Assembly (NCBI GenBank): GCA_053919585.1
Contig: CM132786.1
From: Euprymna scolopes
Taxonomy: Eukaryota
Length of the DNA stretch: 64,000 nt
Strand: one strand, 5' to 3'
Shown here: in pieces, positions 17,405-61,000 of the stretch
How the letters are laid out: each line of letters opens with the position of its first letter
Position numbering within the stretch: position 1 is the stretch's first letter
The notes under the pieces: generated by a model
Database searches by the model: none
What the model was told of the DNA's origin: nothing
Seen by the model: the letters and a program-made list of their open reading frames with translations, nothing else
Translations under genes and position numbers: made by a program

Positions 17405-17750
17405 TGTCGCAGCACGAGGACGGAGAAAGCTGTGTTAAGCGATATACACGCCAGAAATTCTTTTCAAAGTTGAACGAATGAGTTCTTTCGACTTCTGTCT
17501 TCTCGCAAACGTCGCACTCTTCACAATCAAGTTCTTTTCAACCGTCGACCGACAAAAAAAAAAAAAGAAACGACTCGCAATCTTTGTTTCGGCTTCACTT
17601 TTTATAGCCATCGGGCGAACCCAATTGTCGCGGTAATGCGAGTATCGCTCACAAACGTTTTTCTTTGTAATCTAACGGTCCCAGGTTTGATCCCCGACGC
17701 AGGCACGCACAACTCATACTTTTTGTGCGCTTTTGCGCATGCTCGTGACA
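17405..17750 (-). repeat. 3' LTR (346 bp)
   Basis: TGTCGC...GTGACA on + strand; homologous to 21412-21694 with an extra internal segment; TATAAAAA on minus strand at 17599-17606. Confidence 0.93.
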
Positions 17751-17759
17751 CTCCTCCCT
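17751..17759 (-). other. Polypurine tract (AGGGAGGAG)
   Basis: Purine run on the element strand immediately abutting the 3' LTR. Confidence 0.8.
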
Positions 17760-17786
17760 GATCTCGAGATCACACATATGACAATG

Positions 17787-20745
17787 CTAGGCAGGCCGTT
17801 TCTTCCGGGTACTTTGCTTTAATGGTACAGGTTCAGGAACTTCCTCAGTGGTGCCTTCGTTTGCCGGATCATTAAACTCGTCCTGCTCTGGATCCTCACC
17901 ATCTTCTGAAGAGCTTCCGTCATCATCTTCTGAAGAGCTTCCGGCATTTGGCAGTTCGTATAGCAGTGGGTCTTCGTCACCTGATGAATTTAGTTCATCA
18001 TTGATTATAATGTCATGTCGGCATGCTGGGCGCACATCTTTTATGTGATATTGTGTTCCATCAACTGATATTGAGTGTTGACTATTTATTTTTGTCACTG
18101 TTCCTGTATCGAACTGTGTTGTGCATCTTCCCCGCGGATTCTTCACCCAAACCGCATCCCCTTCCTTGTACGGATTAGCCACTGCGGTCTCAGTCACTCT
18201 CACTTCATCAATACCTTTGATACGGACCCTATAATTGTATAGCATATTCGCAGGTGCTGTCATGGCTGTCTTGTCGTCTTTAGGCGTGACGTTGTACCAG
18301 TACACTGCCTCCAAGATCGTGCACCCTGTTTTTGCCGCAATGCGCTTTATAGTGCGATGGGATCGCTCAATTATACCGTTTCCGAGGGCTACGTGGGCAC
18401 ACCGAAATCGAATGTGCACGCCCCACATTTGTGTAAAATCAGCAATTGTCTTTCCGCAAAACGCTGCACCATTATCTGTGAGCAATTCGGTCGGCGGCCC
18501 CCTTTCGCAGAATATACTCTTCAACCCTTTAATGACGCTAGCCGAATCCTGTCGGTACAACAGCCTCCAAATGGCAAAACAGCTGGGACAACAATTCATC
18601 AATGTCAAGTACACCTGAGTACCGAAATGGGTTATATCCATAGCAACCTTACTCCAGGTGTCCGTGACGTTAAGCCTACCTGGCTTCCAATGCATCGGAG
18701 ATGGATCTATGGATTGGCATTCTTTACAATCCCCAACCACCGATCGCACTTGAGTTTTAGTTATTGTTGGATTGACCAACTTTACAAAGTACCATGTCCT
18801 TTTAACACCGGGATGGCCACTGGACTGATGAATTGTTTGTATCTGAGAATCGTGTTTGTGTTCTGCGGTCACAACGCACACAAGTTCTCTGGGTTCTGTT
18901 GCCTTCCGGATCTCATCTATCCACAGCTGTTGTACTTGAGTAAGTTCATCAGCTCTGTTATCATGAGACTGGACGAGCCTCACGTCGATTATTAATTCAC
19001 ACTCTGAGACCAAATCTCGAAGCGTGAAGACGCGACGCCTGCTTAACATTTCCGAGGATGCTTTAGTGTGTATTCTCGTCTGTCCAGACAAGGTGTCAGT
19101 TATCCACCAATAGACACAGGCAGACTCAATTCGCAAATGTATGGTTTTAGCTTTCCACTGTAATGCAAGGTTGACGCCTCGCAGCACAGCATCAAGCTCA
19201 GCTGAATTTATGTGTTTGTTTCATGCATTTCGCGGAGGCAGCTTGTGTTCTCCGCCACAGAACCGTTGCTTTCCACAACCACGCCTGTAGCAATAGAACT
19301 GGCACCCACTCTTACTATGACTTCTTCTCCACAGATGCATCAGTCACCTTTTACTGGATCTTCCTGGGCTACTCTCAAACAAATGTCTTTGATCATCCGT
19401 GTTAGAATAGGGTCACGCACTTCGTCATCCCATCCAGTTGTGGTCATATTCGCCCTTCGTTTCACAAATGCTGTGGCGACACGCAACCAGCCACACACTG
19501 AGAAATGACCAGTCAGTTTTCCGCACACTAAAAATACAATTCGGCGAGTAAGTATATTAGGTACTGTCGGAAGGCCATGCCGCCATAACAATTTTCCGTT
19601 CTCCTCTTGGACACGTAATCCCAATACACATTAGCCTAGTCTCAACTGTTCTGGGGTCTTGCTTTCCATGCCAAACTTTTCCAAGTGTTCCTTTACACGG
19701 GTTGCCGAACATATGCTTTCATTCACAAAAATTTCATCAATATATGAGGACGTAGCCTCATTTATATTCTTATCCTTACTGAGCTCGGTATTAACAATGG
19801 CCCGCATTATTAGAAGGGCAACGTTCAACCCGAATCCGTGGCGGGTAAGACAATATCGCTGTCCCTTAATTTTTACTGTTTAGAACGGCCACAGAGATTT
19901 GTCAACATGTACTTGCAAATAGGTCGGCGTAGTTCCAGCACTGCAACGTTTGGTCCCTGTTGTCGCATTTCCCTCAATTTTTGTAAGCAAACATCCGTGT
20001 TGGCAGGATGCACATTCACGTACTCATTTAGCTCCCGATAATCCATAACGGGACGCACTTTCTGTTTATTCGCCTGCACAACAGCCATGAGAGGGATTAG
20101 ACCTTTTGGAGGGCCAAGTTCGTCCTCGGGATATGGCAGTAACCAACCATTATCAATCCACACCTGCAATTCCCGATCGTATTCATCACAAATCGGTGTT
20201 GGCACTGGATACTCTGCAAGTCTATTTCTCAATGTAAGTGGAGGTTGTTCGCCAGCCCACTTCCACAATGTAGCCCACTTTTGAGTATCTTGGTCATATT
20301 TGGCAGAGCAGTCAGGCTCGGTAACAGTGATAGCAGCAAAATTGGCCTTGCTAAAATGTGGAAAGGTCACCACTCCTGCGCCAGACACAGCTACTCCTCC
20401 CAGTCGCTTGATTGCGTCCAGTCCAAGCAATAAATCAAATCCCAGTAAATATCCATCCACAACTAGGACTTCTGTGCTAATGCTCCCTGTTGCATCAAGG
20501 TCGACCTGCACCATTCCTACTCCACAGCAGCGTAATGTGCTTCCATCTGCTGTGAGCACGGGGGTTACTTTCCTCGTCCATTCTGTGCAATATGACTTGC
20601 GGACCAGTGACTGTGTGCATCCGGTATCCACCAGAGCTGTGCGTGGTAGTCCAGTGATGAGAACCGTGAGAATTGGCAAGACGCTATTTACACCTGTTTG
20701 AGGGATGAGATTGGCGCTCTCTTCTCGCCCCCTTGCTCGTTTCCC
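17787..20745 (-). pseudogene. pol: pol (protease-RT-RNase H-integrase), frameshifted; RNase H C-half plus integrase open for 466 codons (17787-19187)
   Basis: LVDTGC; VRPVMDYRELN; SSYIDEIF; ELDAV...H.NRAD; H..SGHPG...C..C; MDITH...LTDNG...GNGIIER. Confidence 0.93.
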
Positions 20746-21395
20746 GGACAAAATCGAGCAATGTGCCCTCAACGTGATAGGGTTTCGAGATCTGACCCCG
20801 ATATCTCCTCCTGTTGCACTATCTTGTAACACCTCCGTGAAGTATCTGTGTCCTTGGAGTTAACTGGTGTCGATCGTGCAGCTAATGCAGCTTGCTCTGG
20901 AACTGCCGGGTTAGTCATTAAAATAGCATGAGCATGCGCCAGCACATGAGATAGATTCAAGTTATCCATCTGGGATGATGCCCGCAACAAGTTTTCCGTA
21001 TGTTCCGGCAAACCAGCAATAAATGCACATTGCAGGCATTGATCCGATACGCCGCCAAACAGGACTGCTAGCTTGCGCAACTCCGCCAAAAAGACGTTGA
21101 CTGTTTCACCTGGTTGGAGACGACGAGCGGCGAACTGCTTCCATGCAGCAAGCGGATCCAAAGCAAACGCTGTGTACAGAATTTTCTTTATACACCCAAA
21201 ATCGGCATGCTTTTCCTCACTTAATGGCTAGTACACTGCATAAGCGCCGCCTGAAAAACGCATTGGAATTACACATTCAATGCGCTTTACGCCATTTAGC
21301 TGACATATTAGTTCAGCTTTCTCCAACCACTTCACTATTGACTGCCCAGATTCACTGCCATCAAATATAGGTATAAATTTTGGATCGCAAGCCAT
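20739..21395 (-). pseudogene. gag: gag (short, about 220 codons, disrupted)
   Basis: MACDPKFIPIFDG...WLEKAEL; RRLQPGETVNVFLAELRKLA; degenerate C-terminal zinc knuckle (CY.../GHIARFC). Confidence 0.85.
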
Positions 21396-21400
21396 AATAA

Positions 21401-21411
21401 CCGAAATAGCT
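21401..21411 (-). other. Non-canonical primer-binding site complementary to tRNA-Phe nt 2-12
   Basis: AGCTATTTCGG directly follows the terminal CA of the 5' LTR; reverse complement CCGAAATAGCT equals the start of metazoan tRNA-Phe(GAA) GCCGAAATAGCTCAG. Confidence 0.8.
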
Positions 21412-21694
21412 TGTCGCAGCACGAAGGAGGAGAAAGTTAAGTAATTTATGTTAAGCGATATACACGTCAGAAATTATTTTCAAAGTTGAACGAATCAGTT
21501 CTTTCGACTTCTGTCTTCTCGTAATCTTTGCTCCGGCTTCACTTTTTATAGCCGTTGGGCGAACCCAATTATCGTGGTAATGCGACTATCGCTCACAAAC
21601 GTTTTTCTTTGTAATCTAACGGTCTCACGTTCGCTCCCCGACGCAGGCACGCACAATTCATACTTTTTGTGCGCTTTTGCGCATGCTCGTCACA
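21412..21694 (-). repeat. 5' LTR (283 bp)
   Basis: TGTCGC...GTCACA on + strand, homologous to 17405-17750. Confidence 0.93.
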
Positions 21695-23150: not shown

Positions 23151-25841
23151 AATACTACATAAATGATACTTTTCGAGCAATACCTGAAAATAAAATTCTT
23201 TAAATATTCCAATTACAGTAACTAAATAATTAGGTGTTTATTTTACATATATAGTATGAATGTACGACTTTCCTCTCCATTTATTCATCTGCAGGGACTT
23301 ATTTTATGTTTCGACGCCAATGTATACAAGACAATTATAATTAAGTTCTATTCGCGAACTTTTCGTTTCCTTGTTCAATATTTCCTCTTGAGGAGATAGA
23401 TCAATTACTTGTATATTGATTATACAATTCGATAGTACTTCTCAACAAAAGGTTGTCTGTCGTTCTACATACGAAATATGCATAAAGTGATTGCTATTTT
23501 TACAGTAGGTTTTACCTATAAAGCTGCATTGTTTGGTTGTGAATATGTAAATCGCTCAGCGGGTCAGCTTTTAGTTCGCAAGTTTTGCAGTAGATACTAC
23601 AAACTAGCGCAATTTCTTCCGTTTTTCTCGAAATTTCTTCACTATTTTTTGCGCAATCGGTTGCTAGTGAGGTCTGTCACGTAGTCTAAGCGTATAGGGT
23701 AGGCTAAGATATAGACACCAAACACAGGTAGGGGTAGATTATGGCTAGGAAATAACTAGATAATGAAACTTAGTCTTGAAGCACGAATAAGAATTTTTTT
23801 AAACTCGCAATATCTTTTTTGTGCTAAGACCTAGTGTTACATGATAAGGGCTGTCCCCTTTTCATGTAAGTATAAAAATACAGAGATTTAGTTAAAATGA
23901 AAATTAAATGAGAGAAAGCAGGAATCGAACCCTGGAGATAAGTTTTAAAGAACAATAGGTGTAAATGGAATGTTCAGTAAATTGTTGATTCTGATGAAAA
24001 AAATAATAAATAAACTATCATTGTTAGAAAGAATGTGGATAATAAAATATGGGTTAAATGAATTAGATATGTAGGTGAATTCCTTTGTGAAAACAACAAA
24101 GAAAAAATGGGAAATCAGAATGTTCGGAAACGTGCAGGTAGCGCATGTTGATGGCACGTGAATTGTGGTCATGTTGGCCGGACATGCATGGATTTCTCAA
24201 TATAGGAAGTGAGAGTTAGAGTAGTCAGAAGAAGGGAGGCAGAGAGTCAGAGTCAGGCGAGAGTTTGACCAGGGAAGAGAAGGTTCAGTTCGAATCTTGG
24301 CCTCTGGAAGCGAGAGGGATTTAAACAGAAAAAGATGTAAAGAAAGAACCTTTGAATTTCTGAATGCAAAGCCATTGACCGGTCAAGGGAAGAATAAATG
24401 CTCATCATGTTTTTTTTCGTAACTGCCGTCTCCTGTGTCCATCATTACATGAAAAAGGTATTGTCTATTTATGTGTAAAAACCATTTGAAATTCATCATC
24501 TAAAAAATATATGTGTTAGAAAGTATATGTGTCTATTTATGTTATACAAACACTCCCGTTCATACGAACTGTCAAAGCATAAATGCCAACCTGTCAATCC
24601 ATCGGCATAAATGCCAACCTATCGGTCTGTCTATCTAGATATGAAAACACCTTCTCAAAATGTATTTATATGCAATCTCTCATTTATAAACTCTCACTCT
24701 CTCTTTATATACACCTGTTAATGTTACCATATCTCAGATCTCTTACTTCCCTGAACACTCTTAAGACTCTAATCTCTCCTAAGACTGTCTATCACTCTAA
24801 GACTTTCTAATACAAACAATAACACTAAATAAGAACTCATGTAACATACGCGCACAAGTGGTACCTTCGTCTAATAATAACACCCTTACGTAACACTAGA
24901 TAAGCGATCATCTACATTAGATTTAGGAGTTAATTTTGTACCGTAAGCAAAATAGTCCTCTTTAGATGTCATCTCTTCATATGCGGCATCATCTAAGCTT
25001 GCTGTTGCATGAGTAAAAGATTCCATCAGAATTTAGGTACTTTTTTGGATTAGAATGTTCGAACCATTTTCCATCGATCTTGTTAACAGGTTGGAAACAT
25101 ATTTTTTCTTATAAATCTAGAATGATAGTAATTAAAATTTTCTTCGAAAAAAATATTTAATTAAGAATAGAATTGTTGCAAAAATTAGGCAAAGTTACTT
25201 TAAAGATGTAAAGAGTATTTTTTACCGTTGCACCACATGCTCCGGATCCTAGATCCAGAAAATCAGTGAGATTTTTGTCATCAATGCTCTTCAAAATGCT
25301 GCCATAGAAAAGTATGTCATTTGGGTAAATCTCAGTTAATAATCTAATGGTATTTTCTGTCAATTTCTTAATAAAGATCAAAATGAGTGTCTAACAGAAT
25401 GAATTGGTGAATATATTATGGGAAGTACATGGATCAATACGTGATCAGAATTTAACGACTAAACTATTGAAAGCACAATGATCGCTCATTTTTTTAATGA
25501 AATACTTGGGCAGCTAACAAAGTAAATGGACTCGATTCTATCGTAAGATATTACCACGAAATTAAGTAAAATATATACCATAGATTTTTTTCGTCTCATT
25601 AGAAAAACGGTGAAAAGTTGTCGAAAACAAACATTCAGACAGTATATAGACGTATGAATCTTCTACTTGTCCTTTAATGTGAGTTTTTGTACTTGGCTAT
25701 GTTTTACTAATAAATTTGGTTCGATTTAATTTTCATATCACTTAGTAGGTGCACCCATAGAGAATATTCCAAAATAGTAAAAAAAAAAAATCCGTGTCGC
25801 TGTAAAAAACTGATTCGATTTGTTTCACGGCATATTCATTT

Positions 25842-26165
25842 TATTGGACAGTTTATCCTGGCCAAAACTAAAAATAGAATGGTCATTCTTTTGAGTAAAA
25901 CAAGTTGAATTTCAAATTATTCGCTGTAAATAGACAATTTGTAAAAACACGTAATGTATTAATATTTTATATAGTTTTAATTCCTACATGAATTAACAAA
26001 CGCTGTCCAGGTTGTTGCTTATATACTTATATACTTATATACTTATATACTTATATACTATAGATTTTGGTAGTCATGAGCAAAACAAAGAAACGTTCAT
26101 CAAGTCTAAAAATGCCCAGTAAAAAATAAAAATATAAAACGATGTTTGATAAGAAGAATCTCTCT

Positions 26166-26205
<40 letters not shown>

Positions 26206-27053
26206 TTTTTTTTTTTTTTTTTGCACACTCTCCTTTTTTTCTTAATCATTTTCATGATTTAGTGACATAACTTCCGGGTCATCAGTACAAAATTAATAAA
26301 TTTCCGACCTCAGATTTCTGCCCAATCAAACGCTTTCGGAATTCGATATCTTCTTCATGTGATTTTATGTTTTATTTTTTTATTTTTTTCATTTTTAAAA
26401 TGTTGCTTCCTATTTGAAGTGTTGGAATCAAAATTTGCCTTTGAACTGCCGAAAACCATTATATCTTTGTGCAAAAAAAACAGGTTTCCTTCAGCTTAAA
26501 ACGTTCGCGGTGCACGCAAAAACGACATTCAATTTTCCCGTTTCACCGTCAGTAGGAAATCAGTATTTCATGTGAATTAACCATACGTTCAAACGACGCC
26601 GATTCAAAAACAATGCTCTCGCTAGTGAAAGAAATACCGATTTTATATGCTCAAATTCGACCGCATCTTTATTTGCATATGTCATTTTTTCTTTTCCTAT
26701 CGGTCAGGTTTCGAATTCGAGTGGCGGTAACTTTGCTCAATGCACATACGTCACTCTTGGACGCTTGTTTCCATTACAGTTCTCACAGTATTGTAATGGA
26801 AAAAATTATAGTTTAATTAAATCTGTAATTGATTTATTTACTTCCATATTATTTATCTATAATTAGTTTTGTTTTATATTGTCGAAGGCAATACAGTGTA
26901 GTTTTATCTGTATTATTATGTTTATTATTTTAATTAATTTTTACAGCGCTTGTTTAATTGTAAGATAATATATGCTTATATTAAATAATATATATTTTAT
27001 TATTATGGACATATGTATATGTTTTTATGTACTTAATCGTAGATAAAATACTT
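25842..27053. repeat. ~1.2 kb direct-repeat unit, copy 1
   Basis: Colinear similarity with 30440-31662 throughout, including the internal (CT)n tract. Confidence 0.93.
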
Positions 27054-30160: not shown

Positions 30161-30439
30161 TTATAGATGTTTACACTGATGGTTGCCTTATTCCGCCATA
30201 TAATAACGTGTCGAAACGAGAAGTCACCTTCAGAAATCTGGTTTAGTTTTTTTTTTCATTTCTAGGAAACATCATGCTCAGAGATTTTACTATTAGTTGC
30301 GCTCACGCTCGTTCGAACACACAACCCTATCTAAATAAATAAGTACCACGCCAATAGAACGAAAATTACAAATAAAGACTGTAGATTTTGAACAAAAAAA
30401 ATAATCAGTATTCTTTCAGGTATGTTTACTATTGATTTA

Positions 30440-31662
30440 TATTGGACATTTTATCCTGACGAAAACTTAGAATAGAATAATCATTATTTTGGGTGAAACA
30501 AGTTGGATTTCAGATTATTCACTGCAAATAGACAATTTGTAAAAACACGTAAGGTATAATTATTTTGTATAGTTTTATTTCCTACATGAATAACAAATTG
30601 CAGTCTACCTTGTGGCTTATATGCTCAAATACTATAGATTTTGGTATTCATGAGCAAAACAAAAAACGTTCAAGTCTAAATATGCCCAGTAAAAAATAAA
30701 AATATAAAACGATTTTTAATAAGGATAATCACAAGAATTCAATCTCTCTCTCTCTCTCGCTCGCTCGCTCTCTTTCTCTTTCGGTCTCTCTATCTCCTGC
30801 TCTGTTTCTATGACCATCTTATTTTCTTAATCATTTTCATGATGTAGTGACATAACTTCCGGATCATCAGTATAAAATTCATAAACTTCCAACTTTTGCT
30901 TTCTGACCAATAAAACGTTTTCGGATTCCGATATCCTTTTCAAATGATTTTATGCTCTATTATTTTCATCCAATGTTAAAATATTGCTTTGTATTTGAAG
31001 TGTCGAAATTAAAATGTGCTTTGAATTGCCGAATTCCGATATAGGTTCGTACAAATTTTTTTTTTCCTTCAGTTTATAACGTCCACGGCACACGCAAAAA
31101 CACATTCTTTTTTTCCTGTTTTACCGTTCGTAGAAAATCAGTGTTTCTTTCTTTCCATTGACACGTGAACTAACCGTACGTTCAAACGACGCCGAGTCAA
31201 AAAAAATGTTTTCGCTAATGAAAGAAATTCCAGCATTTTATATGCTCAAATTCGACCGCATCTTCATTTGCATATGGCATCTTTTCGTTTCCTATCGATC
31301 GGGTTTCGAGTTCGAGTTCGAGTGTCGGTAACTTTTCAGAATGCACATACGTCACTCTTGGACGCTTGTTTCCATTACAGTTCTCACGGTATTTTAAGGG
31401 AAAGAAAAATAGTAATGCAATTAAATCTGTAATTGATTTATGTATTTGTATATATTTTATCTGTTGATTGCTTTTGTTTTATATTGTCCAAGACAATACA
31501 GCGTAGTTTCATCTTTAATATCATGTTTATTATTTTTATTAATGTTTACAGCGCTTGTTTAATCATAAGATAATATATACATATATTCATATTTAATAAA
31601 TATTTGAATTATTATCGACATACGTATATGTTTTTATATACTCATTCATAGATAAAATACTT
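30440..31662. repeat. ~1.2 kb direct-repeat unit, copy 2
   Basis: Colinear similarity with 25842-27053. Confidence 0.93.
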
Positions 31663-35786: not shown

Positions 35787-36952
35787 ATTTTTTACAAAGG
35801 AGACACCGGAAGCCACTCGAAGATAAGGGTTAATGGCTGTACAGTTTTCAATGAGACAATATCGTTGTAATCGTTAGTAGTGAAAATTTGGTCAATTGGA
35901 TTACGTTGGCCTTGAAGACGGCCACATTGTAGTAAGCTGGAAAGCAGGGAAATGGAAGAGAGTTCTACAGGTGTGCACTTCTAAGAAGGAAGCTTTGTTC
36001 ATGGAATCTACGTTTAGGTTTAGGCAGTGGGAGAAATTATTGATAGTTGTTTCGGGTAGACGAGTGTGTTCGTGTGGGAGAATTATAGTTTGGAGCACAT
36101 ACGAGAACTTGCCATGAAAATAAGGATACAGGATCGCAACGTTTATTTTGTACGAAAGAGGGTGCAAGGAAGAGAAAAAGGCATCCTCCACTAGGCTACA
36201 AAGTCTATTTTGAACTCTGTCAAGGCAGGATAAGCTGCGTCTAGATTTCCCTGTTCAGATGTGGCAACAGTACTCCATCCTTGGCTCTTATACAGGTAGA
36301 CAATTGCATCAGTAGTGAGATATCTACTGGAGCGGTAGAATGATCCCGGACGTTGCAACGGATTTAATGCACGTGTTTCATTTCATACCAGGAGTAAAGG
36401 TCAGCCTAAAGCTTGTCAAAACATGGAGCCTCTCCAAGACGAGAACCATTCATTTCAATTGATGCAAGACGGGGATCAGAGCGTTGATGATGTAAAGATA
36501 GGAGCTCGGGTTTAGATGCATTAAAAGTAACCAGCTACCTCTTTCCCAATTATACCACGTTCTAATATAACACAAAGGAGAGAGAAATCAGAGAGAACTT
36601 GGTCATTCCCGGCACTTGAAGTGTTGTCATAGATGGTAGTGTCGTTAACATAAATGTCTACGAATGATCTTTGGGCGTGATTTGGGAGATCATTAATGTG
36701 GATCAAGAAGAGAGTTAGGCCCCTGATTAACCCTGATAGATTCCAGCATTAATATTGTGAGCTTCTGCTTTCTCCCCATCGACCACTGCTCTTATGAACC
36801 TATAAGAGAGAAATTATTTAATAATTGAGAAAACATTTTCAGCTATACTGTAGCTAGAGATCTTGTGGAGTAGACCATTTATATATCCTACCAAAGGCCT
36901 TTGATATGTCAAGAGCAATTGCCCTAGAAAGAAAACCTCCATCGAGAGATTC
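35787..36952 (-). mobile_element. LINE family B, 3' part (runs into assembly gap)
   Basis: RAIALDISKAF, INDL RT motifs; colinear with 45163-46380. Confidence 0.92.
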
Positions 36953-45162: not shown

Positions 45163-48100
45163 TTCTTTTTCTTACAAAGGAATCATCACTTATAAATGGC
45201 AACTCGAGAATAAAGGTTAAAAGTGTACATTGGTCAAAAGGACAATATCATAGTAATCGTTAGAAATGTTAATGTTGTAAATTGGATTACTTAAGGGGAA
45301 CAGCTCATCAAGAACTTATTTACATTGAACTTGAAGACGGCCATATTGTAGTCAGCTGGAAAGCAGGTAAACGGAAGAGTCCACAGTTGTGCAGTTCGAA
45401 GAAAGAAGCTTTTTCATGGAATCTACGTTTGGTTTTAGGTACAGATAAAGAGTGGGGTATATTATTGATAGTGTTTACAGCCAAACGAGTGTTTCTTGTA
45501 AATGTTTGGCGAGGGGCGGGGACCATACATTGCAGCTCAAACCTGTCATGAATACAACGATAAAACAGAGATCGGCTCGCAACGTCTCTTCTGTGAGAAA
45601 GAGGTTGCAGGGAAGAGAAAAGGGCATTCCCCATTAGGCTACAAATTCTATTCTGAAGTATGTCAAGGCAGGATAAGGTTTTCCTAGAAGCTCCTACCCA
45701 GATTTGATAGCAATACTCCATCCTTGGACGAATATATAGATAGAGAATTGCATCAACAGGTAGATATTTACTGGATCGATAGAAGGATCCCATCATTTTT
45801 CCAGCGACCATGGCACAGATTTGATGTACGCATTCCATTTTAGATCAGGAGTAAAGGTCAACCCCAGAAGCTTGTCAAAACAAGGAGCCTCACAAAGAGG
45901 AGGGCTATTCATTACAATTCATGTCAGATTGAGATTAGAGCGTTGATGATGTAAAGATAGAAGCTTGGTTTAAGATGCATTAAAAGTAAGCAGACACTTT
46001 TTCCCCATTGTACAACGTGCTCAAGATCATAGGAGAGAAAATCAAGGAGAACTTGGTCGTTTACGGCCTTTGATGTGCTATAATAGATGGTAGTTTCGTT
46101 AGCAAAAATGTGTACGAATGATTATTAATATAGATCCGGAAGAGAGTTTGATAAGGGTCGACCTTTGAGGGACACCAGCATTAATGCTATGAGCTTCAGA
46201 TTTCTGCACATCAACACTATTATAAACCTATCAGAGAGAAACAATTTCATGATTAAAAATTTCCAGCTATACCACAACTGCAGATTTTGTAAAGTAGACG
46301 TTTATGCCATACTCTATCAAAGTGCTTTGGTATGTCAAGAGCAATTGCCCTAGAAAGGGGGCCTTCGTCGAGAGTTTCGCTAACCCTATGAGAAATAACC
46401 GTAAGCACGCCCGATGTTGATCTAGCAGGACGGAAACTATATTGCATGTCACTAAGAAGATTATATTTGCTGAGATGGTTGACTACTTCTCTATTTAACA
46501 CAGATTCAAGTAATTTACTCATGACGCACAGGGCACTTATTGGTCTGTACTGAGAGGGAGATTGCTGATCACCGTAATTCTTAAATACATGGCATACCGT
46601 TATAATTTCCAGGGTGTTTGGAAGCAATTCTCCTTAAGACAACGCTTAAGCAGCTTTGTTAGTATGTGAGCTAGTTCTAGTTGAAGCTTTTTGACACTAT
46701 AATTGGAATGCCATCAGAAGTTGCTTTACTGGAATTAAGGTTCTTGATTAGCTTAGTAACATCACGCACATATATTTGTATGTCGCATAGCGTGTTTTCT
46801 GATACAGGAGAAAATACGAAGGTGGGTAGCGGCCTTGGACGCATAGAGTAGAATTAGTTGCAAAATTCTTCGCAAATTGGTTGGCTTTGTCTGATGCTGA
46901 CGAGATTACCTAAGGTATTGATGCTAGTCGGAATAGAGCATACACTTCTGTTAAGGATTGTGCTTGCTATTTGCCAAAACTGGTGAAAACCAAGCCGAGG
47001 CTCAGCCACTTTGGACTTGACAGACTGAATATACAACTGTCTAGCGTTCTTCAGTACTCTTTTACAGTGGTTGCTGGCAGTCCTGAAAGCGGATTTAGTC
47101 TGAGTGCATGTAATACGTTGGAAGCAATGGAAAAAGTGATTTCTGTGCGCAATAGCAGCAACACATTCCGGAGATAACGACGACTGGCTGTTAGGTTTTT
47201 CTGGATTTTTTACGAGGGTATGAAACTGTCTTTACCTACAATTAACCATTCCGTCAGGTCTGCTACTATAGAGGATACATCCTTTTAAAACATGGAACGG
47301 AGAGGTAGATCAGATATAACTGTATGGAAGCTATCCAAGTCAGCCATAGAGTATCGATATACTGTACGATGGACTGGTACATCAGAGGTCTTATTACATT
47401 TCTTTGTTATTTAAACTGACACAACAAAGTGATCGGAAGACCCCAGTGGAGACATAACAGAAGAGGAACATAGCTCAGGACAAGTTGTGTAGGAGACTTG
47501 CACACTGACCGTCAGTATCAGGCAAACGGGTGGGTTCGCGAACAATCTGAGTGAGATCATAAGCAATGAAGAAATCGTGACAGAACATTCCCTCATCATC
47601 TGTCTTTTTTGAGTGTGTTAAGCATTCCGCATTGTGAACATTGAAGTTTTCACTGACGTGAATGTTAGCCGAAGGATGAACAGATAGGATGTAGTCGATT
47701 TTCTTAGATATGCCCTTAAAGATAATAACTCCGCTGTTGTGGAGACGATATAGGGCAAATATAAACGCAGTCGTGTGAGCAAATGCAACACGGAAGCATA
47801 TATAGGGCAATTTAGGATCTTCTTAGATGTTAGTACTACACGGAAAGCCATCTTTAATGAAGGCACATTTTCCATTGCCCATGGCGATCTTGGGTGTACG
47901 ATTTAGATGTTAAGTTGGAGTATTTTTTAATTCTAGACTCCTCTAGGGAAATAGTCGGTTCAATGTCAGTTTCACTTAGGAATAATAGGTCTGGTTTGAT
48001 CTCTTGTAATTGGGTTTCAACCTCTGGAAAGTTGGAACATAGATCCCTGATGTTTGAGAAGGAGATATAATAGTAGGAGTCTACGTTGGAAGTTGAAGAT

Positions 48101-54579: not shown

Positions 54580-57500
54580 TTCTTCAGTACATTCGATCAT
54601 TGTCATTTAAAGCCTACCCCTGTAATGGATTACATCAACTGCCAGTCTTTCCCAGGTCCCAGTCATATCCAGTTCTTCAGCTTCGTGCATGCTTGGAGCA
54701 GGGACAATTGACTGACATCTGTCGCAAGTCCTAACCACTTGCTTTACCTGTTTCCTTGGTGACACTCGGATGGACTTTTCTCACCATGTACAACGTCCTT
54801 ACTACCCCTATCTGGTGTAGATCGTGCAACTCTCGCACCCAAGAATTATCCAGATCAGACACTGCAGCAACATCCTCATTTTGGGGCACGAGCTAACTCT
54901 TTTTCACTCTCGTGAAAACATCTGATTTGTTCTTCTCAGAGGCCACCACGATTACGCGCAGAAATCTCCCGAATCAGCTCAGCCAGCATTCCAAGCTTGC
55001 GCTACACCAGCATCTCTACTGTCCCTTTCGTTTTTACCCTTTTATCGTTTGAAATCATTGATTTTAACCAGGCAAACACAGTTGCAGAGTCTGTTTTCAT
55101 AGACGTCGCGTAGTTTATATTTGAAGGTCACATTCATTCCTTTGGTAACTGCATCCAATTCTGCCACATTGATGTAGCTATCATCATCCTCATCATCAGC
55201 CAGGCCGCCTCCTGCGCAACCACTTCATCCACTTCCAAGACGACACATGTTACCATGTTGCTTGCATCACAGCACACGACCCCATCCAGTGTTCGAGACA
55301 CGTTCAATGTTCCCTGAACTGAGTCTTGCCTTTCCACTTCTTTCAGGACCTCTTCAGTTAAGTAACCGTTCTTCCTCCTAATTTATCGTCCCATCCTCTT
55401 CTTTCGGCATGTCTCTTGATGTAGTTGCATGTGGTCTAAACCAGCTGGCAACGGAGTAATCCCCGATCTGTCTGGCGCATACGGAAAAAGCTCCCACTTG
55501 TCGAGCTCTTCTTTCATTTGTGGGATCTCATTCCCTCTTCGAAATTCTTGGCCACCTGACTCACTTCGTTTCAGATTTAGCCCCAAGGTCGCTCCCCGGT
55601 CATATTCTTCAGGTGCCTTGGCGACCAGCCTGAACTTCTTCAATTGAATCACCACGTCCTTTGCTGTATCAGAGTTTCATTTACGAGAATGTCATCGATG
55701 TACGAGCTCACGGCACAATCGCTCCAAAACCTTTCTAAAATTGTGGAAATGATATTTGGTGCCGAGTTCAACCCGACCCCTACCAACGTAAGGCAATAGG
55801 ATCTGCCTTTATATCTGACCAACTGGTAATTCCAAAGTTTTTTGGCGATGCGGATTTGCAAGACGGCAGATTTCAGATCGATCAACGTAGTCGCATTTTT
55901 CATTTGCCTCCATTCACTGCATACATCTACAGCGTCACCCCCAGTATGGAACTCAACATGTTTTTTCAACTCTTGGAAATCTAGAACTGGTCTGACCTTC
56001 CATTTTGTTGGTTGCAGAACTGCCATCAATGGCAAGATGCCCGATTCGACGTCATCCGTTCACGCAACAGTATACCGTCCTCAATCCATCTGTCCACTTC
56101 TCGTTCAAAATACTCACTTACTCCTCCTTTAACCGAATTATTAACGCATGCAACCCTGTTTGTTAGCGTAGGCGATTTATCCTGCCACGCTCACTCCACT
56201 GTCCACTAAATCTCGTCGAATTCTGCTTGAAAATCCGGGTCACTGATCGAGATCCATCTCTTTTCTCTGACATCTTTGCGCCCTTCGTTGACCTGTTCTG
56301 CCACTGCTGCGCACCTTGTCGGTCCTGATCTCACGTCATTGCTACTTACTGTAACATCACCAAGTAGGCATATTACGTCCATTTCAACAATCGTTTGAAC
56401 ACCAGGCACCAGTTGATCGGTGACAATTGCATGTACCCTCATCCGCTGATCCACTTGTGACGGTCCTCCTCCCTCGACACTTCACTCGTGACCCATCAAA
56501 TGCCACTATTTCGCCCTTCCATTTCCATCTTTCGACCAGACTTTTGTGCACCATAGTAGTGATACAACCAGTGTCGATCGGATCCGTGACTTATTGTCCT
56601 TCCACAACAATCTCTCGCTTGGGCATCTGCTGTGAGCGCGTCATTATTCCCAAGGCGGAACAGCTGCTGGTGCTTTGGCTCCCCTTTTGCTAGTTTCCCG
56701 GACTCGTGTAGTTCACTGCGATGTGCGCACCATGGTTACACCTGTGGAACACTATCTTTTCGTTGAACTTCCTATAGTCTTTCCGCAAGTGAAGCCCCTC
56801 ACATTGGAAACATGCACATCACGGTGTCAGCCGACTTCTGCTCACATCCTTCCGCGCTGTTGCCACCGTTCCTACGAAACTTGAGGGTTGAGTGCTCACT
56901 AATATTTTCGCAGTTGAGAGCAGCTCGCTCACCTTCAAGGACCTTCTGTAACCTCTTGAAAATCTCCTCCTTGAACCCGGTGACAAACGCCATCTTGGCA
57001 AGGTGACATGCTGCCTGCCTCCTAATTCCTGATAGTTCCAATAATCTGTTATTATTATCTTATTATCTTACACGGCGACGGATTCCTTCCTCCACCTAAT
57101 TTCTGCTGAACACCTCAAACGGACCTCTCAGCAAGTGCCTGGATCAATCTGACTTTAACTGCGTCAGCATCATCTTGTTCCAGCCCATTAATCTCCAAGT
57201 ATAGGGCTAGGGCACCCCCCGCCAGGAATAATGGTATCACTATGGCAAAATAGAATATATTTAGGAGCTTCACCACTAGGTTCAATTTTTTTTAGCCAAG
57301 ACACCACATCGCCTTCGCCACTGAATAACTTTATCATATTGTTTAGACCGGTTGCCATAGCCGAAATAGCTTGTTCCTTTGTTGATCAAGCTGTGAGAAG
57401 TCGTAACAGCTGTCCTCCAAACACGTGGCTAGACATCCAACAATCGTCAAAGGTCACAATCCTACTTCTAAACTCAGGCTGCTTTTATACTATCTATCTT

Positions 57501-57645
57501 CTCCATTTGCATGTATATGGCGAGATTTCGCGAGACAACAGCTTATAAAACCACAGGCATCATCTTTAATCTCTCTCTTTATCACCTGACTTCGCCCGAC
57601 ACATACGTGGAAAGATTCCTGTTTCCTTTACTGAAGACAACAACA
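54580..57645 (-). mobile_element. Second LTR retrotransposon of the same lineage, 3'-truncated within integrase
   Basis: gag MATGLNNMIKLFSGEGDVVSWLKK; IDTGC; VRPVLDFQEL; IDLKSA; SSYIDDILV; CDAS RNase H; HHCC; putative 5' LTR from 57372 (TGTT) to about 57645 (AACA) with TATA at 57483-57489. The outer LTR end is inferred. Confidence 0.9.
57360..57371 (-). other. Non-canonical primer-binding site complementary to tRNA-Phe nt 1-12
   Basis: + strand reads GCCGAAATAGCT|TGTT, a 12/12 match to the 5' end of metazoan tRNA-Phe(GAA). Confidence 0.82.
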
Positions 57646-60532: not shown

Positions 60533-61000
60533 CTTTTTTTACTTTGGAGTCACCATTTATTAAGACCCGAAGGTCACTTGAGGATAGGAGTTAACGAATG
60601 TTAGGTAATAGTTTAATAATCGGTAATGGAGTAATTGCATATAATGTGATTGTTTACATCGGATTTGAAGGCTATCATGTTGTATTAAACCTGGAAGCAA
60701 GCCAGCGAAAGAGGGTTCCGCAGGCGAGCAGTTCTGGGAAATAATGAATGGAATCTGTGTTTAGATTTAGACACATATAGAGAGTGGAGGAAATTGTATA
60801 TAGTGGTTGTAGCCAGTTCGGTGCTTTTGTGGGAGTTTTGCAAAGGGGAGCCATAGATTGTAGTTCAGTCGAGCACTTACCATGAAAATAATGATAGAAC
60901 AGAGATAGGTTCACAATCGTATCTTCTGTGAAAAAGAGGTTGCAGGGAAGGTAAAAGGGCATCACGTACTAGGTTTCGAATCCGGTTTGGAACTCAATAA
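60533..61000 (-). mobile_element. LINE family B, short 3' fragment
   Basis: LFYHYFHGKCSTELQ...; colinear with 45163-45660. Confidence 0.85.

What the first reader, a model, noticed from the sequence alone, without database searches (positions are those of the whole stretch)
17670..17709. U3 of the LTR carries the complement of the 3' half of the same tRNA-Phe (possible bipartite primer binding)
Seen: + strand ATCTAACGGTCCCAGGTTTGATCCCCGACGCAGGCA (17670-17705; second copy 21614-21649). Against remembered tRNA-Phe ATCTAAAGGTCCCTGGTTCGATCCCGGGTTTCGGCA, the first 25 nt match at 22 positions and both end in GGCA. It lies upstream of the LTR TATA box, so it would appear only at the 3' end of the genomic RNA, in antisense to the tRNA. 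Established: yeast Ty3 uses a bipartite PBS with extra tRNA-complementary boxes in the 3' U3. Inference: one tRNA-Phe could be unfolded and bridge both RNA ends, with its 3' half held by U3 and its freed 5' strand on the PBS. Alternatively this is a B-box/TFIIIC site or a captured tRNA relic. I could not find an equivalent in the second element's LTR.
Basis: partly seen in the sequence, partly recalled or inferred. Interest (0 to 1): 0.8.

Follow-up and report, generated by a model that had tools for sequence, protein, structure and literature searches.

The report
tRNA front-end priming in Gypsy retrotransposons
The flagged stretch is a decayed, backwards tRNA copy found only in one small branch of these jumping genes and is likely not needed for their copying, but most of the wider group carry a 12-letter site matching the front end of the phenylalanine tRNA, so they likely start copying from a short cut-off piece of that tRNA.

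Summary
The segment is real but over-read. Against the host's own tRNA-Phe it matches 21/25 (3' LTR) and 19/25 (5' LTR); 0 of 1,500 shuffles reach 21. It is the best-kept part of a whole decayed tRNA-like insert lying antisense in U3, and the terminal four-base match lies in flank that insert-less LTRs also keep. Only one tip clade has it. Its sub-family E, its sister family, 23 of 24 sampled LTR families in this genome and 32 of 32 metagenome relatives lack it. A required Ty3-type bipartite site is therefore not supported; an accessory site in this one family is not excluded. The stronger result lies next door. Directly after the 5' LTR the clade has a 12-nt complement of tRNA-Phe nt 1-12 (6,821 genomic hits against 44 control). 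Conservation stops at tRNA nt 1. In 30 of 44 relatives picked by reverse transcriptase alone, the site equals the 5' end of a real Phe tRNA gene, in four variants. Priming would need a cut after nt 12, which is inferred, not shown. I found no such primer in ten paper searches or five look-ups of earlier scan notes.

The parts
17670..17705 (+). Flagged segment in the 3' LTR: sense to tRNA nt 38-73 on +, antisense in the element's RNA; only nt 38-62 match well
17639..17694 (+). Whole decayed tRNA-like insert (weak A-box-like part through T arm) in U3 of the 3' LTR
   Evidence: gapped alignments; absent from family E
21614..21649 (+). Second copy of the segment in the 5' LTR (19/25, 24/36)
17405..17750 (-). 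3' LTR, TG...CA ends, 346 nt
21412..21694 (-). 5' LTR, 283 nt, with an internal deletion; 252 of 274 aligned bases identical to the 3' LTR; no target-site duplication at this copy
21400..21411 (-). Primer-binding site: complement of tRNA-Phe nt 1-12, flush with the LTR end (11 Watson-Crick pairs plus one G-U here)
17598..17606 (-). TATA-like box of the LTR (function inferred)
   Evidence: block shared by families A, B, E
17610..17621 (-). Arm of an imperfect inverted repeat whose partner (17684-17698) overlaps the T-arm-like part of the segment
   Evidence: sequence; predicted pairing in the 5' LTR fold
17751..17765 (-). Polypurine tract before the 3' LTR
17787..21395 (-). Broken gag-pol: gag, aspartic protease, reverse transcriptase, DUF7047, RNase H-like, integrase, in several frames
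57360..57371 (-). Primer-binding site of the second element, 12 of 12 complementary to tRNA-Phe nt 1-12
57372..57603 (-). Inferred 5' LTR of the second element; no tRNA-like segment

Best explanation
The U3 segment is a decayed antisense tRNA-like insert confined to one tip clade and likely dispensable for replication, while the clade-wide 12-nt site after the 5' LTR pairs in sequence with tRNA-Phe nt 1-12 and likely serves as the real primer site. Shown: the insert's distribution, its decay and the 12-nt complementarity. Inferred: tRNA-Phe is annealed by its 5' strand to this site and cut after nt 12 in the D stem, most likely by the element's RNase H in the manner recalled for Tf1 or else by a host nuclease; the 12-nt piece then primes minus-strand DNA flush at the LTR end. 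Inferred: the insert entered U3 once, by a template switch onto a packaged tRNA during plus-strand synthesis or by a tRNA/SINE insertion, and family E later lost it or branched before it was gained.
For: Insert: present in families A and B only; these and family E form one gag clade (SH-aLRT 97, quick tree) whose sister family C has an unrelated LTR without it. Family E keeps the LTR start and TATA block, lacks about 75 nt, occurs at 8 of 78 sorted LTR copies, and in 3 of 11 fetched 5' ends shows the fused junction upstream of a primer-site-like stretch. Of 24 LTR clusters from 90 loci only family A has the nt 38-62 match; 0 of 32 metagenome relatives do. The six bases next to the match, five of which differ from Phe, are more alike between A and B (0.92) than the matching part (0.72); tRNA positions 51, 57 and 58 mismatch in both families. 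Primer site: 6,821 hits against 44 for the reversed pattern; no base exceeds 11 of 24 at positions 13-20 after it; 64 of 65 open frames behind it are gag; no self-complement above 9 of 12 in the 600 nt upstream in 24 of 24 families. Of 44 RT-selected metagenome loci with a gag start, 31 have the site's frame and 30 equal the first 12 nt of a Phe tRNA gene found separately, in four variants; for two variants the site follows the tRNA's 5' strand where the 3' acceptor strand differs. The site alone anneals in the cofold in 24 of 24 families, with 11-12 bases paired in 23.
Against: No primer, cut site or cDNA end was observed. The own-genome sample was chosen by the site itself, so only the boundary at nt 1, the gag searches and the RT-selected set are free of that bias. 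13 of 44 metagenome loci lack the clean frame and 34 of 78 could not be read. The Phe variants were not matched to the hosts of those elements. 16 of 90 sites mismatch the host tRNA at the base facing nt 5 or 6, and no host Phe gene with G5 was found. Against pure neutrality of the insert: the nt 38-56 part is better kept between A and B (0.72) than the 5' half (0.42), and family A fits Phe best of 7 host tRNAs (median 20/25 against 17 or less). Only 7 host tRNA types could be tested. Upstream stretches of metagenome contigs may not hold whole LTRs.
Confidence: 0.7

Rival explanations
1. In family A the U3 segment is an accessory second tRNA-Phe site: it holds the tRNA's 3' half at the RNA 3' end while nt 1-12 sit on the primer site, bridging both ends (the first reader's idea, limited to one family and non-essential, like the 3' site of Drosophila gypsy).
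For: Family A fits Phe best (gapped median 46 against null 32, sd 3.7; cofold net -15.9); a three-strand fold with both contacts is the predicted minimum; family A is more Phe-like than B at tRNA positions 60-64 and 72; precedent in PMC1635307 (abstract and discussion).
Against: Energy is additive, not cooperative, and Pro (-14.6) and Gly (-12.1) bind nearly as well; family B prefers Pro; fixed mismatches at 44, 51, 57, 63, 67, 69; the A-specific matches at 60-64 also form an inverted repeat within U3; family E spread without it.
Confidence: 0.15
2. The kept part of the insert works at the DNA level as a promoter or enhancer element of the LTR, possibly a degenerate B-box/TFIIIC site or one arm of an inverted repeat beside the TATA box.
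For: A-B identity there (0.72, and 0.92 in the adjacent six bases) is as high as in the TATA block (0.66); A-box-like and B-box-like parts at tRNA spacing in family B; Helenus precedent (PMC10886601).
Against: The invariant B-box A is present in 14% of A and 8% of B copies; only 7 genomic hits have it; the insert is antisense to the element; no Rfam or ARAGORN tRNA call.
Confidence: 0.1
3. The 12-nt site is not a primer site for a cut tRNA but a docking site for intact tRNA-Phe or its fragments (packaging, translation control), with priming done some other way.
For: No cut product has been seen; about 18% of sampled sites carry one mismatch.
Against: It sits flush with the LTR end, where a primer must end; no self-priming complement was found upstream; its length stops exactly at tRNA nt 1.
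Confidence: 0.08
4. The U3 resemblance to a tRNA is chance.
For: With about 50 tRNA types and no prior for Phe, a 20/25 match (2 of 1,500 shuffles) is only marginal.
Against: The separate A-box-like match in family B at the right spacing, the insert's tRNA-like length relative to family E and the Phe prior from the primer site.
Confidence: 0.04

Closest known systems
[quoted passage not shown]
   Same: tRNA-complementary sequence both after the 5' LTR and in U3; a bridge is foldable in family A.
   Different: Ty3 primes from the native tRNA 3' end and needs the end-to-end contact; here the 5' site pairs with the tRNA 5' end and most relatives lack any U3 site.
Drosophila gypsy second (3') tRNA-Lys site (PMC1635307, abstract and discussion)
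   Same: A 3' tRNA-binding site that is dispensable for cDNA synthesis.
   Different: Binding was shown there; here it is only predicted, and gypsy's 5' site is not reported to use a cut 5' fragment.
Helenus TRIMs with tRNA-derived LTR sequence (PMC10886601, parts 1-4 of 6)
   Same: tRNA-like sequence inside LTRs, of uncertain isotype, judged not to take part in priming.
   Different: Helenus are short non-coding elements with conserved A and B boxes; this is a coding 4.3-kb element, the insert is antisense and its B-box is mostly broken.
Half-tRNA priming of copia, Ty5, Osser, Bryco, Bianca (PMC6317226, PMC5371799 passages; PMC10886601)
   Same: A 5' tRNA fragment made by an internal cut would be the primer.
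   Different: Those cut in the anticodon arm, use Met, Ile, Tyr, Asp or Asn tRNAs and are Copia elements; here the cut would be after nt 12 of tRNA-Phe in a Gypsy clade.
Tf1/Tj1 self-priming (PMC4600332 passages; the RNase H cut and 11-nt primer length are recalled)
   Same: A very short primer taken from an RNA 5' end, site flush with the LTR, cleavage needed.
   Different: The primer there is the element's own transcript; here no LTR complement exists and the partner is a host tRNA.

Membership tests
Ty3/Gypsy LTR retrotransposon | Protease, RT, RNase H, integrase in that order | tested here: met
   Pfam hits and order; RT-bearing homologues
Ty3/Gypsy LTR retrotransposon | TG...CA LTRs, polypurine tract, target-site duplication | tested here: met
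   of 13 copies sorted as solo LTRs, 6 have an exact 5-bp duplication, 2 have 4 of 5, 5 have none (some mis-sorted); the window copy has none
Ty3/Gypsy LTR retrotransposon | Placement in a named Gypsy clade (Mag, CsRn1, MolGy and so on) | not testable with these tools
   no reference library of named clades was available
Ty3-type bipartite PBS | 5' part pairs with the native tRNA 3' end | tested here: not met
   site pairs with nt 1-12
Ty3-type bipartite PBS | U3 boxes complementary to the same tRNA | tested here: inconclusive
   met for family A (20/25), not specific in family B, absent elsewhere
Ty3-type bipartite PBS | U3 part required for priming | tested here: not met
   comparative only: families E, C, the second element and 23 of 24 clusters lack it
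Ty3-type bipartite PBS | tRNA bridges both RNA ends in vitro | not testable with these tools
   fold prediction only
Helenus/TRIMp3 | Non-coding, under about 1.3 kb | tested here: not met
   4.3-kb element with gag-pol
Helenus/TRIMp3 | Conserved A and B boxes in the LTR | tested here: not met
   B-box A in 14% and 8% of copies; A-box-like part 0.42 between families
Tf1-type self-priming | Primer site complementary to the element's own LTR | tested here: not met
   best 7-9 of 12 Watson-Crick in 24 of 24 families
Half-tRNA priming (copia/Ty5 type) | Site complementary to the anticodon arm | tested here: not met
   complementary to nt 1-12
Half-tRNA priming (copia/Ty5 type) | tRNA fragment found joined to minus-strand cDNA | not testable with these tools
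   no such data

The most novel reading that the evidence does not exclude
A large animal Gypsy clade uses a fourth kind of primer: a 12-nt 5' fragment of host tRNA-Phe, released by a Tf1-like RNase H cut in the D stem after annealing, with the site re-tuned to each host's Phe tRNA; one family has in addition captured a tRNA copy in U3 that can clamp the rest of the tRNA.
Probability: 0.45. Interest if true: 0.82.

Novelty: new variant of a known kind. Interest (0 to 1): 0.66.

Why it matters
A plant survey lists three primer types for LTR retrotransposons: whole tRNA, half tRNA cut in the anticodon arm, and self-primer (PMC6317226, passages). A 12-nt tRNA 5' fragment would be a further type, between half-tRNA and Tf1 priming, used by thousands of insertions in this genome and by relatives in other samples. 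Pipelines that look only for tRNA 3' ends (as in PMC13524379, methods passage) would miss it. It gives a direct test of which enzyme cuts a tRNA D stem and whether 5' tRNA fragments regulate these elements. The U3 segment taken alone is a modest case of tRNA capture in an LTR and deserves about 0.3.

Tried and rejected
Required bipartite site: rejected by distribution. A general helper site in U5 instead of U3: 4 of 56 elements at p 0.05 or less, no excess over flanking windows. Self-priming: no complement in 24 of 24 families. SINE donor: about 0.9 Mb of fetched DNA gave one tRNA-derived repeat; it scored within the shuffle range for families A and B; a B-box-intact pattern gave 7 hits, 3 at known LTR loci, 4 not checked singly. 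Full host tRNA set: the Rfam search returned one Thr array plus one other gene; 20 blind stretches added Cys, Lys and Gly, and one locus Pro and Glu, so 7 types only. Reads: 14 raw reads, none over the segment, and contigs cannot show ends. Primer-site reversion: variant and tRNA-matching sites coexist within three sub-lineages of one young family, but trees were unresolved and inheritance explains it too (PMC7472051 passage). Viral contigs gave one weak locus and then none; the first metagenome scan found none. The gag tree is the quick one, 90 of 106 rows, 16 left out as short or broken. Paper searches showed no report of this primer; Repbase Reports, GyDB and subscription journals were not searchable and no supplements were read, so absence from print is not established.

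Full report
Setting. The window lies in a 5.9-Gb animal genome. The finding sits in a broken Gypsy-type element on the minus strand: 5' LTR 21412-21694, gag-pol in pieces, polypurine tract, 3' LTR 17405-17750. The LTRs agree at 252 of 274 aligned bases; this copy has no target-site duplication, while 6 of 13 copies sorted as solo LTRs have an exact 5-bp one. Homologous proteins are named from nematodes and crustaceans.

The observation. I took tRNA-Phe from the genome: 643 pattern hits, ARAGORN-confirmed in 6 of 6 loci tried. The flagged copies match its nt 38-62 at 21 and 19 of 25, and nt 38-73 at 26 and 24 of 36; the family median is 20/25; 0 of 1,500 shuffles reach 21 and 2 reach 20. ARAGORN and Rfam see no tRNA here. 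The segment lies at LTR positions 46-81, before a TATA-like box at 145-153. That it is U3 is inferred; 14 raw reads and contigs did not show RNA ends.

What the segment is. LTRs sharing the same start fall into family A (54 copies), B with intermediates (13), E (8) and 3 unsorted. Family E keeps the start and the TATA block but lacks about 75 nt between them, and it keeps the flank that holds family A's terminal four-base match. The missing piece aligns to a whole tRNA: in family B from an A-box-like part to the T loop, best to Thr (median 46), Cys (43) and Pro (41) with Phe at 38; in family A best to Phe (46) and Gly (44); nulls average 30-36. tRNA positions 51, 57 and 58 mismatch in both families; the B-box A is in 14% of 51 A copies and 8% of 12 B copies. 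Between A and B, identity is 0.72 in the nt 38-56 part, 0.92 in the adjacent six bases of which five differ from Phe, 0.42 in the 5' half and 0.66 in the TATA block. Some constraint on the stretch is therefore possible, but it does not follow Phe pairing. No SINE donor was found, and only 7 host tRNA types could be compared.

Distribution. In a quick gag tree (90 of 106 rows), A, B and E form one clade (SH-aLRT 97), sister to family C, whose unrelated LTR has no such segment. A pattern of LTR end plus primer site gave 6,821 hits against 44 for its reversal. I fetched 90 of the first 100 listed, leaving out one odd hit and the last nine. They form 24 LTR clusters, of which only the single family A locus has the nt 38-62 match. 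The window's second element lacks it, as do 32 of 32 metagenome relatives with enough upstream DNA. Three of 11 E-type 5' ends show the fused junction upstream of a primer-site-like stretch.

The primer site. Flush with the LTR end, the clade carries the complement of tRNA-Phe nt 1-12 (window 21400-21411; 12 of 12 in the second element). Across 24 families conservation ends at tRNA nt 1, 64 of 65 following frames are gag, and no LTR holds a self-priming complement above 9 of 12. For a sample not chosen by the site, I took 78 metagenome loci by reverse transcriptase. Of these, 44 include the gag start (38 distinct), 31 show the site's frame and 30 equal the first 12 nt of a Phe tRNA gene found in separate scans, in four variants differing at nt 4-6. 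These tRNAs were not matched to the elements' hosts. 16 of 90 own-genome sites mismatch at nt 5 or 6; variant and matching sites coexist in sub-lineages, which fits reversion by primer copying but also inheritance (PMC7472051, passage).

Mechanism. For priming, a free 3' end must lie at tRNA nt 12, so the tRNA would be cut in the D stem; this is inferred from geometry. I favour the element's RNase H by analogy with Tf1 (self-priming per PMC4600332, passages; the RNase H role is recalled). The site alone gives a favourable cofold in 24 of 24 families and no general U5 helper exists (4 of 56). In family A a three-strand bridge folds at -22.4 kcal/mol, about the sum of -7.3 and -14.5, and Pro binds U3 almost as well as Phe; these folds ignore tRNA modifications and tertiary structure. 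An accessory role like the dispensable 3' site of Drosophila gypsy (PMC1635307, abstract and discussion) stays at about 0.15.

Comparison. Ty3's bipartite site uses the native tRNA 3' end and needs the end-to-end contact (PMC5371799, PMC4974528, passages). Helenus shows tRNA-like LTR sequence that does not prime (PMC10886601, parts 1-4 of 6). Three primer types are listed in PMC6317226 (passages), none ending at nt 12. Passages of PMC13524379, PMC3587641, PMC8220671 and PMC8556966 did not mention this site. Ten searches and five look-ups of earlier scan notes found no report; the notes concerned self-priming lineages. Repbase Reports, GyDB, subscription journals and supplements were not seen.

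Verdict. The bipartite reading is not supported as a requirement, and the U3 segment is most likely a lineage-limited tRNA relic. The clade-wide 5'-end primer site is well supported in sequence and untested at the bench. Interest 0.66; new variant of a known kind.

Noticed in passing
L004, L021, L068, L081 (family A U5 end): The last 27 nt or so of U5 are inverted between two short palindromes in four separate copies, which destroys the normal LTR end but leaves the primer site.
   Followed up: no
L149-L238 and family A/B/C copies: The primer site varies mainly by T-to-C at the two bases facing tRNA A5 and A6 (8 and 8 of 90), in several families; no host Phe gene has G5.
   Followed up: partly
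L150 (cluster 2), L101 and L108 (family B), U5: Isolated U5 stretches complementary to tRNA-Phe nt 18-42, 14 of 16 in cluster 2; not general across 56 elements.
   Followed up: partly
G000:C28:101706348-101725673; C18:100-108 Mb; C11:1.68-2.16 Mb: Large tandem tRNA gene arrays: Phe at 219-bp spacing, Thr with many anticodon variants, Cys, and mixed Lys/Gly.
   Followed up: no
L367-L381: A dispersed tRNA-derived SINE-like repeat with A- and B-box-like motifs, 1,796 first-look candidates.
   Followed up: partly
L401-L403, L410, L418, L422-L426 and others: Animal-type tRNA-Phe genes, some in tandem arrays, inside prokaryote genome bins; probably host contamination.
   Followed up: no
window 54585-57603: Second, older element of the same clade, cut off in the integrase by another repeat.
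   Followed up: partly
window 25839-26982 and 30437-31587; 35901-36548, 45320-46007 and 60654-60992: Other dispersed direct repeats, not examined.
   Followed up: no
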